DNA from: Okamejei kenojei
Taxonomy: Eukaryota
NCBI GenBank assembly: GCA_035221665.1
Contig: CM069155.1
Span: 19,344,001-19,408,000 of the forward strand
DNA: 64,000 bases
Direction: 5' to 3'
The translations under genes were made by a program, and so were the position numbers. Positions 5,996 to 50,163 of this stretch are shown piece after piece. The notes under the pieces are model-generated. The model saw nothing but the letters and a program-made list of their open reading frames with translations, was not told the DNA's origin and searched no databases. Each line of letters opens with the position of its first letter. The first letter of the stretch is position 1.

Positions 5996-8003
5996 CTAGT
6001 GAAAAAGCAAAAAAACCTTACCCAGTTTTCTAATATAAATGTACCTCATTTGTTGGAAAATCAAAACAGCATGCAAAATAGTAATTTTTCCATATATTAA
6101 GAATTTTGTGACATTCACTTTTAATTTAAAAAATTGCTAAATACTTTGAAACTATCAAGCTGTCCAAAGTTTGAAAAGAACAAATTGTCATGATGATTAG
6201 AATATTACAAATAGGTGGGAGGCTAATCAATCCCTCGAGGCTGCTCCACCATTCAAAAGATCACAACCGATCGCTGCTTTATTTCTTTCACCACTCTTTT
6301 CAGTTCCCATGTTCAAATGTCTGTCATTCTCTGTCTTGTATCTATTCAACGACTCCTCATCCACAAATGTCTGGAGCATAGTGTTCCAAACGATTCACAA
6401 CCCTCTGGGAGGAATTCATTACTTCCACTTTAAGCAGAACATTCCTTATTCTGAAAGTGTATCTCCAGTTCTAAATTATCCCAGTGTCAGAAACACACAC
6501 TCAGCATCAACTCTGTCAATTGTCCTCAGAACCCTACACGTTTCGATAAGAGAAAAATTCTCAAATCCTATGAATCCCCAATGACCTTAGGTCTGATTTT
6601 TCTTCATTCTTCAGCAGCTTTGTGAAATGTAACTGCACTCCCTCCAGCTCAAAAATTGAGATTTGAGAGCATCTGCAGCATTCCAGAAGCTATTTCACCA
6701 ACACCCTGTGTAAAAATGCTGTCTAAACTTCCCAACTTTAATACTGCATTCTACTTCTAAATAAAGACCAACATTTTATTAGCCTTCCTACCAGCTTATT
6801 GTATCTGCATGCTAACGCGTTTCATGTACAGGCATCCCCAGATCCCTGTGAAGCTCAGCATTTTGTAGCCTCACTATTTAAACAATTTTCTTTTTCATTC
6901 TTCCTTTCAAAGTGGAGAACAGATTTTCCCACTACTCTGTACTTTCATCAAAAAAAAGGAACGTCTATTTAGTCTATTGAATTAATTCCAATACCAATCA
7001 AGGGTTCCACAAAAAAAGCTGAATTCCAGAGGTGAGATAAGAATGACTGCTTGACATTAAGACAGCATCCATGGTTATATTAAGGAGCCGAGTAAAATTG
7101 AGAGAATAGTGGATAATCTACTGGCCGCAATCACAATAGTGCCAAAGATAACGACCAATCTAGAGGTCATCACATCCTCAGGGTATCACAAAGGATCGAC
7201 GTGTGTTCCATTTGCAGCAATTGTTCATTTGTTCTTTTGTTCATCACCAAAACATTTAAATAAAAGGACATTCACAGCTTCTTGGAAGGCGCTCAATTTC
7301 ATTTAGAAATCTTTAGGAAATGAAACAACCAATGACTGCTTACAGCAAGGGTAGGAAAATAAAATGGCATGAGTTAATAAAAGGAAAGCAAAATGTGCCA
7401 GGCAATAAACATCAGCAACAAGCGCTTAATCAATATCATCCGCACGTGACATTTAATGGTGACATCCCACCACACCTCCATCATCAATTTCCTTTGCTGA
7501 CCAGAAACTTTACAGCATGTGGCTAAGAGAGCTGGTCACTCAAGCAGCATAACTACAGGCTGCAACGACAGAGGGGCTACCAGGGATTTGTCAATCCCAA
7601 TCAAAACAAAAATAAACAATCTCTGCCACACCAAGAACAAAGGCAGCACACACAAGGAGACGCTATGCTCCATAATTCATGCAAATCACCACCCAGGGAT
7701 AACGGTTTCCTGGCCATTATATTCTGGACTATTTGTGGTTGCAGCTAAGAGTTTCCTTTTTCATTCTCTTTGAGTACAAGGTTACTTTGCTCATAATACA
7801 AAGGTGGCAGTAAGATCAGTGGAAAAATGTAAGATTATCAATAATGTTAGAATAAAAGCATTTTATATTTTTTAAATGGTAACAGTCAGTGTATAGACAG
7901 ACCTGGATGTCACTTTACACAAATTAAGAATTAATATGCAGGCTCTGCAAGCAGCTAGAAGCCAAATGCTACGTTGAATACAAGAATCAAGAGGGAGGAC
8001 ATT

Positions 8004-8522
8004 AGAAACATAGAAAAATAGGTGCAGGAGTAGGCCATTCGGCCCTTCGAGCCTGCACCGCCATTCAATATGATCATGGCTGATCATCCAACTCAGTATC
8101 CTGTACCTGCCTTCTCTCCATACCCCCTGATCCCTTTAGCCACAAGAGCCACATCCAACTCCCTCTTGAATATAGCCAATGAACCGGCCTCAACGACCTT
8201 CTGTGGCAGAGAATTCCAGAGACTCACCACTCTCTGTGTAAAGAATGTTTTCCTCATCTCTGTCCTAAAGGAATTCCCCCTTATCCTTAGACTGTGTTCC
8301 CTTGTTCTGGACTCCCCCAACATCGGGAACAATCTTCCTGCATCTAGCTTGTCCAACCCCTTAAGAATTTTGTAAGTTTCTAATAAGATCCCCCCTCAAT
8401 CTTCTAAATTCCAGTGAGTACAAGCCGAGTCTATCCAGTCTTTCTTCATATGAAAGTCCCGACATCCCAGGAATCAGTCTGGTGAATCTTCTCTGAACCC
8501 CCTCTATGGCGAGAATGTCTTT
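8004..8522 (-). mobile_element. young 5'-truncated CR1-type LINE with 23-bp TSD
   Basis: ORF2 C-terminus (TREHSLRIRG..FFTQRVVSLWNSLP) still open; TSD CAAGAATCAAGAGGGAGGACATT at 7981-8003 and 8523-8545. Confidence 0.92.
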
Positions 8523-19183: not shown

Positions 19184-19402
19184 CTTCAGCCGATGGAGTA
19201 ACAGCTCTGTTGGTAGCTGGGCTAGCTGGTGTTGGAGATGCATTTGTAGCAGGTGCAGCTATAGGTTCAGCTGGAACACTGCCAGGCTGAGAAGATAGGA
19301 TCATTCCACTTGGAGAACCTCCAGGAATATACTGAGTTGGCTGGTTACCATGTCTGGGAGACCGCGGTCTGTGTGTTTTGGGAGATAAACGGGTGCTTGA
19401 TC
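19184..19402 (-). CDS. ATXN2: ATXN2 exon GSSTRLSPKTHRPRSPR...NRAVTPSAE (219 nt)
   Basis: TAG/GTGAGC, phase 1-1; RLSPKTHRPRSPR conserved. Confidence 0.93.
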
Positions 19403-34367: not shown

Positions 34368-34489
34368 CACATCCGATTCCAGAGCCTCCAAATCTTCATT
34401 GGTACTATCACCACCATCCCATGGTTCTAGATCTTTATCTTTGTGCTCACCATTTAGTCTGGAGCCAATGGCAGCATCAGTAAATGCAT
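34368..34489 (-). CDS. ATXN2: ATXN2 exon DAFTDAAIGSRLNGEHKDKDLEPWDGG...ALESDV (122 nt)
   Basis: CAG/GTAAAT, phase 1-0; matches human DAFTDSAISAKVNGEHKEKDLEPWD. Confidence 0.96.
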
Positions 34490-38612: not shown

Positions 38613-40631
38613 ACCAGTTAATAAGTGGGGTAGTGTGATAGTGGGGTTGTTCTAAGGCTAGAATGGACATAATGGCCAAATGTCGTGATAAATGTGGTAA
38701 CAATAAGGAAATTAAAACACCAGAATTTGCAGAGAACTCAAGCTATCGGGAGCTGTATAATTATAAAAGAAAGCAATGAGCTGCTTTTTAAATAAGAAAT
38801 CAGAATGTGTGCCATTTTGCAAAAGCAGCCAAACATCAATGAGCCGATAATTCACTGCCAATTCTGAGGGACTATTATTTCAGTTGTTTTCATGAATGAT
38901 TCCCTTCCACTGAATATATTCTACTAATGCACCAATTCAGATTCAAAATAGTACAGCAGCACATTGTCCTTATACAATAAGCACATAATACTTTACTAAA
39001 TCTGTTAGGGTTTGGTTTGGTTAATTTTCATTTGGCTTGGTTAATTTGTTTCCAATTTGCTAAATGGTGATCTTCAGGAAGTGTTATTTGTGCAATTAGT
39101 TTCATTACAACACCCTTTTCACAAAATGCAGAATATAATCAAAATACCATAGGGGATTTCCTTGCCTCAATATTTAGTATCCTTACAGCAAAGGTCGAGT
39201 CCTACAACAGCTTTTTGCAAGCAATCCTTGTGAACTTTCCCCCCCATAATATACAAATGCTTTCTCTCAAATATCAAAGTTTGCTCTGTCCATTAAAATT
39301 GTAAGTTAAAATGTGCACACATTAGAAAAATAAAAGCAAGCTCTGCAAATAATTCTCATACATGCAAATGCAATTAATTTATCAATACGCAGCAACAATG
39401 AACCCATGGTTCACCATGGACATGGAAATGGGAAACACAAGAAATTGTGTAAAGAACATGAGGTGACATCCACACTTCAATTTTATTCAATTTGGCTAAG
39501 TGGATTGACAGATTTTTGATTAGTAAGGGTGTCAGGGGTTGTGGGTCAAAGGCAGGAGAACGTGGTTGAGAGAGAAAGATAGATCAACAATGATTGAATG
39601 GCAGAGTAAACTTGAGGGCAGAATACCCTTAATTCTGCTCCAAAAACTTATGAAATTGTAAAAGTGCCACTAAGATTGTTTAGCGAGGTCATCGTAATGA
39701 AATTGTTGCAAGAATGCAACTTTAATGGAGCCTCATTTCCATGGAAATAAGCTGAAAATCAGTACTCGCAAACAAAATTAAAACAAAATATTGTACACAA
39801 TTTCCTATTAAAAAAAGCCCTTTAGAAACCCTGTGAAGTGAAATGTAGAACCAGTGAAGTCTTTTTAGTTGTATAAACCAGAAATTCTCCATTCATTTAC
39901 AGCAATTTATAGAGTGCTTGGTATTTGTAAGGCATAACCTACTCAAAAGTATAATTTTTAGATTACATACAATGCCACAAAGATACTAATTTAGAGATTT
40001 CTTAGAATGAAAATGATGCTTCTGTTCTCCTACCAAATTTAATGCTTACCAGGGAATGAAACAATCTTTCTTGAATTTAAACATAATTTGACAAAAGCCT
40101 GACTATGACTTATTCATCCTACTCTCATTTAAGAGGTACAATGTCAGTTCAAGATTTTTTTAAATATTGCTGAATCATTGGCTAGGAATAACTGAGTTTA
40201 TCGAGCTCACAAATTTAATCCAATCACAAAAAGCTTTTTAAAATACAAGCTACATAGCATGTTATCATCATCTAATTGTGCAAAGATTATTATCTTCATC
40301 TGCAAAATTGATTAAGACAATGCATACAAGTATTCATAGAAGACTGCTCTATTTTTCAGCTATATTCAGAGTTCAAGAAAGCTTTGCACCACTTGCTGAA
40401 GTAAAAGGCACATAAGTCAAGAGTAGAAGTGAATTTTTCATGGAGCAACTAATGATTTTTTTCCCCACTAGTTTAAGGATCACTTGGATTGAACATGCAA
40501 TATTTTCTAAGATTTACTGCCACTATAAAGCAGTTTATAAGCAGATGTTAAGCTCAGAATCAGTTTGATAACAAAAAAGGGAGAGCGTTAACATACGCAC
40601 ACATTATAAAACAAAAGTAAAACAGAATTAC

Positions 40632-40646
40632 CTGTTTCAGATGGAA
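40632..40646 (-). CDS. ATXN2: candidate 15-nt in-frame microexon adding VPSET
   Basis: long polypyrimidine tract + TAG, TTCCATCTGAAACAG, GTAATT donor; phase 1-1 fits flanking exons, no stop. Confidence 0.7.
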
Positions 40647-41439
40647 CTATAGAGATCAGAAAGAGAAGGTGGAAAAAAGAAACAATATCAGTAAACCAAA
40701 TATGTATTTAGGATCAAGATGATCAATCAGCTATCGGGTTTAAAAAACAGCAACATTTGCTTGTTAAAAAACACTCTGTGGTGTAATTACTGACTTATTG
40801 TGGGAAATTACCATGCATGGAACATATTTTAAATTATTATTTTACTATCACTTTTACAGCAGTTAACACAGCGCTAGAAAACAGAGCATCTACTTCTTGA
40901 TAGTCTTCTCAGTGCAGAAAATATCGGATGGGGAGGACGTTTCTGAGAAAGGAACAAAAAGTCTGTAGGTAGACGAATTCAGGAGCACATCGATTCCAAC
41001 ACATTGTCTGCATAAGTGACTGAGGATCATCCATTTTTGCATGAAATAAACCAAAGTCTATCATGTTAATTCACAATAGGTTTTATAGATTTTATTTTCG
41101 GTTGAAGCAGAAGAAAGCCCTCACTTTATGAAAACTATGAGCATGAGCCATCACCATATTGAATGGCGGTGCAGGCTCGAAGGGCCGAATGGCCTACTCC
41201 TGCACCTATTTTCTATGTTTCTATCTTCCATACTTGGTCTAACCAGTTTCAGGATGCAGTAGCATATTTCCACTCAGATCTAGGTGCTCACACAAACATT
41301 GGCCTGGATATTGTTGGCAAATTCCTAGAGTTCTGAACAGAACCACCAGCTTATGTGACAATCAAGTCTTCTGCAGAGAAATGTGGAAATTTCTAACTTA
41401 CTTTAGCAACAGGTGAAATTTCAGAAGACTTACAGCCAG

Positions 41440-45821: not shown

Positions 45822-47452
45822 CATTGACAATAGACAATAGGTGCAGGAATAGGCCATTCGGCCCTTTGAGCCAGCACCATTCAATATGATTATGGTTGAT
45901 CATCCCCAAACAGTACCCCGTTCCTGCCTTCTCCCCATATCCCCTGACTCCGCTACCTTTAATAGCCCCATCTAGCTCTCTCTTGAAACTATCCAGAGAA
46001 CCAGCCTCCATCACCCTCTGAGGCAGAGAATTCCACAGACTCACAACTCTGTGTGAAAAAGTGTTTCCTCATCTCCGTTCTAAATGGCTTACCGCTTATT
46101 CTTAAACTGTGGCCCCTGGCTCTGCACTCCCCCAACATCAGGAACATGTTTCCTGCCTCTAGATTGTCCAAAACCGTAATAATCTTATGTTTCAATAAGA
46201 TTACCTCTCATCCTTCTAAACTTCAGAGTATACAAGCCCAGCCACTCCATTCTCTCAGCATATGACAGTCCCACCATCCCCGGAATTAACCTTGTAAACC
46301 ACTCCCTCAATAGCAAGAATGTCCTTCCTCAAATTAGGGGATCAAAACTGCATGCAATACTCCAGGTGTGGTCTCACTAGGGCCCTATACAACTGCAGAA
46401 GGACCCAATTTGCATACTCAACTCCTCTTGTTATGAAGGCCAACATGCCATGCGCTTTCTTCACTGCCTGCTGTACCTGCATGCTTACTTTCATTGATTG
46501 ATGTACAAGGACCCCCGATCCCGTTGTACTTCCCCTTTTCCAAACTTGACACAATTTAGATAATCTGCCTTCCTGTTTTTGCTACCAAAGTGGATAACCT
46601 CACATTTATCCACATTAAACTGCAACTGCCATGCATCTGCCCACTCACCCAACTTGTCCAAGTCACCCTGCATTCTCATAGCATCCTTTTCACAGTTCAC
46701 ACTGCCACTCTGCTTTGTGTCATCTGCAAGTTTGCTATGTTACTTTGAATCCCTTCATCTAAATCATTGATGTATATTGTAAATAGCTGCGGTCCCAGCA
46801 CCAAGCCTGGCTGTACCCCACCAGTCACTGCCTGCCATTCTGAAAGGAACCCGTTAATCCCTATTCCTGTCTGCCAACCAATTTTCTATCCATGTCAGCA
46901 CTCTACCCCCAATACCATGTGCCCTAATTTTGCCCACTAATCTCCTATGTGGGACCTTATCAAATGCTTTCTGAAAGTCCAGGTACACCACATCCACTGG
47001 CTCTCCCTTGTCCATTTTCCTAGTTACATCCTCAAAAAAATCCAGAAGATTAGTCAAGCATGATTTCCCCTTTGTAAATCCATGCTGACTCAGACCGATC
47101 CTGTTACTGCTATCCAAATGTGCCGCTGTACCCTGGGAGGCAGACCATCAGGCCCTGGGGATTTATCAGCCTTCAGTCCCATCAGTCCACCCAACACCAT
47201 TTTCTGCCTAATGTGGATTTCCTTCAGTTCCTCTGTCACCCCAGATCCTCTGGCCACGAGTACATCAGGAAGATTGTTTGTGTCCTGCTTAGTGAAGACG
47301 GATCCAAAGTACCTGTTCAACTCATCTGCCATGTCCTTGTTCCCCACGATAAATTCACCCTTTTCAGTCTTCAAAGGTCCAACTTTGGTCTTAACTAATT
47401 TTTTCCTCTTCACATACCTAAAGAAGCTTTTACTATCCTCCTTTATATTCTT
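45822..47452 (-). mobile_element. CR1 LINE ORF2 (RT) remnant with deletions and frameshifts
   Basis: KSPGPDG, QHGFTKGKSCLTNLLDFFE, VYLDFQKAFDKVPH, WQLQFNVDKCEVIHFG, RPHLEYC motifs. Confidence 0.95.
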
Positions 47453-50003: not shown

Positions 50004-50163
50004 CTCTTCTTGCATAATTTAAATCTACATCTTTAAAATGCAGCAATACAATATCTGCAGGTTTAAAAATGATACTTTCAACAATATCTTCACGTTTTGG
50101 GCCCACTTCTCGCGAGCTAGATTCTGATTTTTTTCGGTGAGCAGCGTCAAGCACCAAATCACA
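50004..50163 (-). CDS. ATXN2: ATXN2 exon, Lsm, CDLVLDAAHRK...KDVDLNYARR (160 nt)
   Basis: within ORF 49957..50202; CAG/GT boundaries, phase 0-1. Confidence 0.96.

What the first reader, a model, noticed from the sequence alone, without database searches (positions are those of the whole stretch)
40494..40817. Hidden 15-nt in-frame microexon (VPSET) between the Lsm and LsmAD regions
Seen, deep in a 15.5-kb intron: branch-like TACTGAT, ~35-nt pyrimidine tract, TAG, TTCCATCTGAAACAG, GTAATT. Phase 1-1 gives YARR-VPSET-DAFTD. RBFOX motifs (UGCAUG) lie ~130 nt downstream (40494-40499, the activating side) and ~165 nt upstream (40812-40817). The surrounding ~1.4 kb lacks recognisable TEs. The canonical human protein reads YAKR-DAFTD with no insert; I recall teleost ataxin-2 having a similar VSSDT insert. 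Inference: an ancient tissue-regulated (neural/muscle) microexon that gene predictors would easily miss.
Basis: partly seen in the sequence, partly recalled or inferred. Interest (0 to 1): 0.7.

Follow-up and report, generated by a model that had tools for sequence, protein, structure and literature searches.

The report
Ancient five-residue microexon in ataxin-2

Summary
The window is a skate ATXN2 gene (minus strand), and 40646-40632 is a 15-nt, phase 1-1 exon giving YARR-VPSET-DAFTD. Splice signals alone do not beat chance (33 of 100 shuffled introns score as well). Conservation settles it: ataxin-2 protein records carry the insert in 13 of 21 cartilaginous fish species, 9 of them with both forms, and in coelacanth, caecilian, reptiles, birds, platypus, marsupials and 10 placentals; teleosts have VSSEQ, VSSDA or VSTDT. 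So it is ancient and alternative, but not hidden: RefSeq models of three skates include it. The insert splits a motif whose spacing is fixed in 40 of 43 distant relatives. Tissue control is untested: no UGC before the acceptor (against SRRM3/4), one RBFOX site at +133, and the 708 zebrafish neural exons list only another, 18-nt atxn2 exon. No simian or murid record with the insert turned up, a weak hint of loss. I found no paper on it. This scan had not noted it before.

The parts
40632..40646 (-). 15-nt cassette microexon of ATXN2, phase 1-1, adds VPSET
   Evidence: same insert in orthologous proteins
50004..50163 (-). Upstream exon: second half of the LSm (SM-ATX) domain, ends NYARR plus one base
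   Evidence: Pfam PF14438 E 6.9e-06, below the curated cut-off for this part alone; 98% to Amblyraja ataxin-2
34368..34489 (-). Downstream exon, starts (D)AFTD, leads towards LsmAD
40687..40693 (-). Predicted branch point TACTGAT, branch A at 40688, 42 nt before the exon
   Evidence: consensus match only
40647..40686 (-). Pyrimidine tract (84% C/T, UCUC-rich, no UGC) and TAG acceptor
40626..40631 (-). Donor site CAG|GTAATT, score 8.9 within the range of this gene's other donors (3.4-12.3)
40494..40499 (-). RBFOX-type TGCATG 133 nt downstream (candidate enhancer)
   Evidence: binding untested
40812..40817 (-). RBFOX-type TGCATG 166 nt upstream
   Evidence: binding untested
40422..41138 (.). Low-divergence zone around the exon in contigs of related organisms
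   Evidence: run X6 has at most 13 differences in 717 nt here against 39 in the 762 nt beside it; boundary chosen after seeing the data; core 40422-40830 single-copy in the genome

Best explanation
This is a 15-nt, frame-preserving cassette exon of skate ATXN2 whose VPSET insert is present in protein records across jawed vertebrates, likely included in a tissue-biased way (probably brain and muscle, through RBFOX downstream and a PTB-type tract upstream rather than SRRM3/4), and it would act by lengthening a conserved motif right behind the LSm RNA-binding domain. Shown: sequence, frame, both forms in orthologous records, fixed spacing of the motif in distant relatives. Inferred: when included, five residues with a near-invariant Ser and a following acid push D-x-F-T-D away from the end of the LSm fold, which would change how the LSm and LsmAD parts pack or bind RNA and partners, and may add a phosphorylation site. 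Odds: real alternative exon 0.97; tissue-biased inclusion about 0.6; RBFOX as the main activator about 0.4; altered LSm-LsmAD behaviour about 0.5.
For: Of 508 protein records held, 248 skip the exon, 163 read VPSET, 60 carry five- or six-residue variants (VSSEQ, VPSES, VSSDA, VPSKT, VSTDT, VASET, VVPSET), 6 carry unrelated inserts and 31 have no readable junction; the set is enriched for the insert because searched with it. 13 of 21 cartilaginous species with a readable junction have VPSET, 9 of them both forms, including Callorhinchus. Also Latimeria (VPSES), Rhinatrema, lizards, turtles, birds, platypus, 3 marsupials, 10 placentals. Two unnamed Logan contigs of 3.9 kb encode whole 1027- and 1035-aa proteins with VSSEQ, so they are likely spliced transcripts. 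In 56 inclusion forms V140 is invariant, S142 stands in 55, E/D143 in 55. In 43 distant ataxin-2 family representatives with a readable motif, 40 keep exactly 4 residues between YA and F-x-TD. Flanks diverge less than the neighbouring intron in related organisms. Branch point at -42, near the neural microexon median of 45-47 nt against 34 (PMC12871342, passage). TGCATG is enriched downstream of alternative micro-exons (PMC4317164, passages). By the borders in PMC11898529 (LSm 94-185, LSmAD 193-315; passages) the junction falls in the short linker; mapping it rests on reading D184/S185 as the DS before YA.
Against: No junction read from this or any skate was seen: no listed holder is on record as RNA and the laid contigs show no joint. 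Most records are computed gene models; that they rest on RNA-seq junctions is my own knowledge of the RefSeq pipeline. The zebrafish list of 708 neural exons holds one atxn2 exon, of 18 nt, not 15 (PMC12626424 supplement rows), so the orthologue is not called neural there, or was not covered. All 6 Astyanax RefSeq models aligned include the insert, which fits broad inclusion. A single downstream TGCATG has P about 0.09 by chance, and its conservation in distant species could not be checked. Both structure models were uninformative (mean pLDDT 35).
Confidence: 0.7

Rival explanations
1. A conserved exon that is partly included in most tissues, with no strong tissue switch; both isoforms are made side by side.
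For: Absent from the zebrafish neural table; insert in all 6 Astyanax RefSeq models and in 6 of 9 Hemicordylus records; splice-site scores in the range of the gene's ordinary exons (7.8 and 8.9); no UGC.
Against: TGCATG on both sides, long branch-point distance and low-divergence flanks; 8 of 21 cartilaginous species show only the skip form in the records sampled, as expected if inclusion needs particular tissues.
Confidence: 0.25
2. A member of the SRRM3/4-dependent neural microexon programme.
For: Size, frame, conservation, branch point at -42 and UCUC-rich tract; a UGC is found in only 74-79% of SRRM3/4 targets and is not strictly needed (10.1101/2024.09.17.613571, passages).
Against: No TGC in the 93 nt before the exon; no 15-nt atxn2 exon among zebrafish neural exons; no atxn2 hit in the files searched of PMC12626420 (12 of 13), PMC9303857 (12 of 18) and PMC7821500.
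Confidence: 0.12
3. A chance pseudo-exon or annotation artefact.
For: 33 of 100 shuffled introns hold an equally strong candidate; no junction reads here.
Against: The encoded five residues equal the insert found at the same junction from chimaera to elephant; the stretch is single-copy.
Confidence: 0.02

Closest known systems
RefSeq ataxin-2 isoform models of skates (XP_032899191.1 Amblyraja radiata X4; XP_055511788.1 Leucoraja erinacea X1; XP_078277704.1 Rhinoraja longicauda X1)
   Same: Same gene, same junction, same VPSET, with sister models that skip it.
   Different: Automatic models only; no tissue pattern, regulator or function attached.
Conserved vertebrate alternative microexons (3-27 nt; PMC8187152, PMC4317164, passages)
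   Same: Short, frame-preserving, conserved peptide and flanks, downstream TGCATG.
   Different: Tissue pattern unknown; not seen in simian or murid records here, whereas the studied sets are built on human and mouse.
SRRM3/4-dependent neural microexons (PMC12626424; 10.1101/2024.09.17.613571)
   Same: Size, long branch-point distance, UCUC-rich tract.
   Different: No UGC before the acceptor; not in the zebrafish neural list.
Zebrafish atxn2 neural microexon DreEX0016233 (PMC12626424 supplement)
   Same: A microexon in the same gene.
   Different: 18 nt, no human orthologue listed; by length it likely is the teleost KSIIWK exon behind PAM2, not this one. The match is by length only.
Described ATXN2 splice variants lacking exons 10, 11, 12, 21 or 24 (PMC7650068, abstract and first quarter of the text)
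   Same: Alternative splicing of ATXN2.
   Different: All lie behind LsmAD; none at the LSm border.

Membership tests
ATXN2 (not ATXN2L) | Best matches are ataxin-2; LSm, LsmAD and PAM2 exons in order | tested here: met
   one match each for two exons in the own genome
Conserved alternative microexon | 3-27 nt with AG/GT borders | tested here: met
   15 nt, TAG / GTAATT
Conserved alternative microexon | Preserves the reading frame | tested here: met
   274 and 279 residues without stop
Conserved alternative microexon | Both included and skipped forms exist | tested here: met
   both forms in records of 9 cartilaginous species and of platypus, beaver, carp, pike; from protein models, not reads
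Conserved alternative microexon | Conserved intronic flanks | tested here: inconclusive
   lower divergence in close relatives only, table cut to 40 of 103 rows, boundary set after the fact
SRRM3/4-dependent neural microexon | UGC between branch point and AG | tested here: not met
   no TGC in 93 nt; present in 74-79% of targets
SRRM3/4-dependent neural microexon | Long branch point to AG distance with UC-rich tract | tested here: met
   42 nt, 84% pyrimidine; predicted branch point
SRRM3/4-dependent neural microexon | Neural-enriched inclusion | tested here: inconclusive
   no 15-nt atxn2 row among 708 zebrafish neural exons; coverage of that exon there unknown; no skate RNA
SRRM3/4-dependent neural microexon | Inclusion lost without SRRM3/4 | not testable with these tools
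   needs mutant RNA-seq
RBFOX-activated cassette exon | TGCATG in the downstream flank | tested here: met
   +133 nt; chance about 0.09
RBFOX-activated cassette exon | Site conserved in distant vertebrates | not testable with these tools
   no distant vertebrate genomes on hand; one search does not list every difference
RBFOX-activated cassette exon | RBFOX binding and dependence | not testable with these tools
   needs CLIP, knockdown or minigene

The most novel reading that the evidence does not exclude
An ATXN2-specific switch, born before cartilaginous and bony fishes split and kept almost letter for letter, breaks a motif whose spacing is fixed from invertebrates to ATXN2L, giving neurons or muscle an ataxin-2 with a rewired LSm-LsmAD junction; monkeys, apes and perhaps mice and rats have lost it, so human ataxin-2 lacks an isoform that fish, bird and marsupial models of SCA2 and ALS still make.
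Probability: 0.25. Interest if true: 0.6.

Novelty: new member of a known kind. Interest (0 to 1): 0.35.

Why it matters
Ataxin-2 is the SCA2 gene and an ALS modifier, and how its LSm and LsmAD parts cooperate is an open question (PMC11898529, abstract). A natural five-residue insert at their junction, held for the whole history of jawed vertebrates, is a ready-made probe of that junction. If simians lost it, zebrafish and bird work on ataxin-2 involves an isoform that people do not make. As a kind of element it is ordinary, and it is already in automatic annotations.

Tried and rejected
Sequencing runs: no RNA holder listed; contigs laid on 39660-41140 showed no joint, and the two X1 pieces are intronic and not shown to be RNA; a laying across the whole intron was not obtained, so the junctions remain unread. 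Structure: two full-length AlphaFold2 models with and without the insert had mean pLDDT 35 and did not fold the LSm domain, so no fold search was run; no solved ataxin-2 structure matched. ESM Atlas only repeated the LsmAD/SM-ATX families. RNA folding of 40480-40830 was not clearly better than shuffles (z -1.64). Literature: 9 searches; 'VPSET' with 'ataxin' gave 0 papers. Passages read in PMC12524157, PMC12730607, PMC12898128, PMC12871342, PMC8187152 did not mention this exon. Supplements: no atxn2 hit in PMC12626420 (12 of 13 files), PMC7821500 (8 files), PMC9303857 (12 of 18), PMC8187152 (one file unread); PMC4317164 lists only a 33-nt ATXN2 micro-exon among its human entries (one file not searched); those of PMC12898128 and PMC12871342 could not be read; Irimia 2014 and Torres-Mendez 2019 are not held. 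VastDB itself could not be queried and may well hold this exon. Ensembl gene ids used as search terms were recalled, so blanks on them are weak. I first took the zebrafish atxn2 neural microexon for this one and dropped that, as it is 18 nt. A caspase site (SETD/A) and kinase sites (RxxS, SxxD) made by the insert come from recalled consensus motifs; the caspase idea is weakened by pike (TDTE) and beaver (SKTD). Earlier scan notes returned by words concerned other genes.

Full report
Observation. On the minus strand the window reads TACTGAT, a pyrimidine tract, TAG, TTCCATCTGAAACAG (40646-40632), GTAATT. The flanking exons end at 50004 and begin at 34489, 15,514 nt apart. Six neighbouring exons spliced with and without the 15 nt give open frames of 279 and 274 residues, NYARR-VPSET-DAFTD and NYARR-DAFTD. 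TGCATG lies at +133 and -166.

Chance. With a matrix built from 21 acceptor and donor sites of this gene, the exon scores 7.8 and 8.9, inside the range of the ordinary exons, and ties for 2nd of 1050 candidates of 3-30 nt in the gene's introns. But 33 of 100 dinucleotide shuffles of its own intron hold a candidate as good. The signals alone therefore prove nothing; the evidence had to come from other species.

The gene. The upstream exon matches Pfam SM-ATX and ataxin-2 of skates at 94-98%. Amblyraja ataxin-2 maps exon by exon along the window from 62716 to 3091. Two exons each find one match in the own genome, and the core around the microexon is single-copy.

Other species. I read the junction in all ataxin-2 records fetched. 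Of 21 cartilaginous species with a readable junction, 13 have VPSET and 9 show both forms, among them three skates, white shark, catshark and the chimaera Callorhinchus; 8 show only the skip form in the 1-6 records sampled; whale shark records had no readable junction. Coelacanth and one lizard read VPSES; caecilian, other lizards, turtles and birds read VPSET. Teleosts read VSSEQ, VSSDA or VSTDT. A search aimed at the insert returned it in platypus, three marsupials and ten placentals: two shrews, two elephants, mouse lemur, ground squirrel, a leaf-nosed bat, beaver (VPSKT), pipistrelle (VASET) and hedgehog (VVPSET). Two unnamed 3.9-kb Logan contigs encode whole proteins with VSSEQ and so are likely spliced transcripts. 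Most other records are computed models; that these rest on RNA-seq junctions is my own knowledge. The exon is thus older than the split of cartilaginous and bony fishes (inference by parsimony), alternative, and already annotated automatically, so 'hidden' is too strong.

A possible loss. Among the best 120 of 924 hits, down to 90% identity, none came from a monkey, ape, mouse or rat, although such a record with the insert should have scored near the top. The two simian records held skip it. The human list in the supplement of PMC4317164 (novel micro-exons from brain, muscle and nerve) has only a 33-nt ATXN2 entry. Three of the ten placental inserts are altered. This is only a hint: the search shows one representative per 90% cluster, one cluster alone has 924 members of which 15 were listed, and dog, horse and alpaca were also seen only in the skip form.

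Where it lands in the protein. In 56 inclusion forms the Val is invariant, the Ser stands in 55 and an acid follows it in 55. Among 148 new distant representatives, 43 had a readable motif, and 40 of these keep exactly four residues between YA and F-x-TD, including ATXN2L-like and invertebrate-like sequences (these records are unnamed, the labels are my reading, and one representative per cluster can hide isoforms). The skip form is therefore likely ancestral, and inclusion stretches a conserved motif by five residues. By the borders given in PMC11898529 (passages) the site lies in the short linker between LSm and LsmAD, and that paper's abstract reports that LsmAD assists the RNA-binding LSm domain. 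That the insert changes this cooperation is inference; the two structure models gave no information.

Regulation. For an RBFOX type: TGCATG at +133, a motif enriched downstream of alternative micro-exons (PMC4317164), only 1 of the 21 other exons has one within 200 nt downstream, and contigs of related organisms diverge less around the exon (run X6: at most 13 of 717 against 39 of 762 places, Fisher P 0.0006, or 0.014 without one cluster of 8; boundary chosen afterwards). For a neural type: predicted branch point at -42, against medians of 45-47 for neural microexons and 34 for others (PMC12871342). Against SRRM3/4: no UGC in 93 nt, though 21-26% of targets lack it too. Against a neural switch: the 708 zebrafish neural exons include only an 18-nt atxn2 exon, which by length is likely the teleost KSIIWK exon, and all 6 Astyanax RefSeq models aligned include the insert. 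No RNA of this species was available. I commit to tissue-biased inclusion through RBFOX and a pyrimidine-tract repressor as the likeliest reading, at moderate odds.

In print. Nine searches and the passages and supplements named under Tried and rejected did not show this exon; described ATXN2 variants concern exons 10, 11, 12, 21 and 24 (PMC7650068). Several large tables could not be seen (unread files), and VastDB could not be queried; any of them may list it.

Verdict. A real, ancient alternative microexon of ataxin-2, a member of a well-known kind, present in automatic annotations and apparently unstudied. Interest 0.35; it would rise to about 0.6 if it proves a functional switch that simians lost.

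Noticed in passing
window 12628 and 12622 (minus strand): Two donors 6 nt apart give the optional GK seen in skate, teleost and platypus isoform records.
   Followed up: partly
window 4762 and 4747 (minus strand): Two acceptors 15 nt apart give an optional IFLMQ in Amblyraja isoforms.
   Followed up: partly
window 26133-25936, 21006-20830 (minus strand): The Rhinoraja X7 record jumps from the exon at 29134-28956 to that at 19402, skipping both Pro/Ser-rich exons, like the described variants lacking exons 10 and 11.
   Followed up: no
P0040, P0048, P0049, P0051, P0047: Stork and crane records carry unrelated inserts at the same junction (VKVLQNTEESSEVA, GISIV); these may be other exons in that intron or model errors.
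   Followed up: no
P0485, P0502, P0208 and related teleost records: A six-residue optional KSIIWK behind PAM2 in carp, cavefish and pike, likely the neural zebrafish exon DreEX0016233; in the window the matching intron is only 130 nt (12824-12695).
   Followed up: partly
window 41143-41223: Repeat fragment, 95% like 8003-8084 and 87% like 45830-45895; contigs of three related runs stop matching at 41138, so the flank beyond differs among relatives.
   Followed up: no
window 30784-30758 (minus strand): Top-scoring microexon-like candidate of the scan (27 nt); no matching insert was seen in the Amblyraja isoforms aligned, so probably chance or part of a repeat.
   Followed up: partly
cluster of P0356: The 924-member cluster mixes ataxin-2 with BRCA1-associated protein records, probably through a fused gene model of the two neighbours; its size overstates ataxin-2 members.
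   Followed up: no
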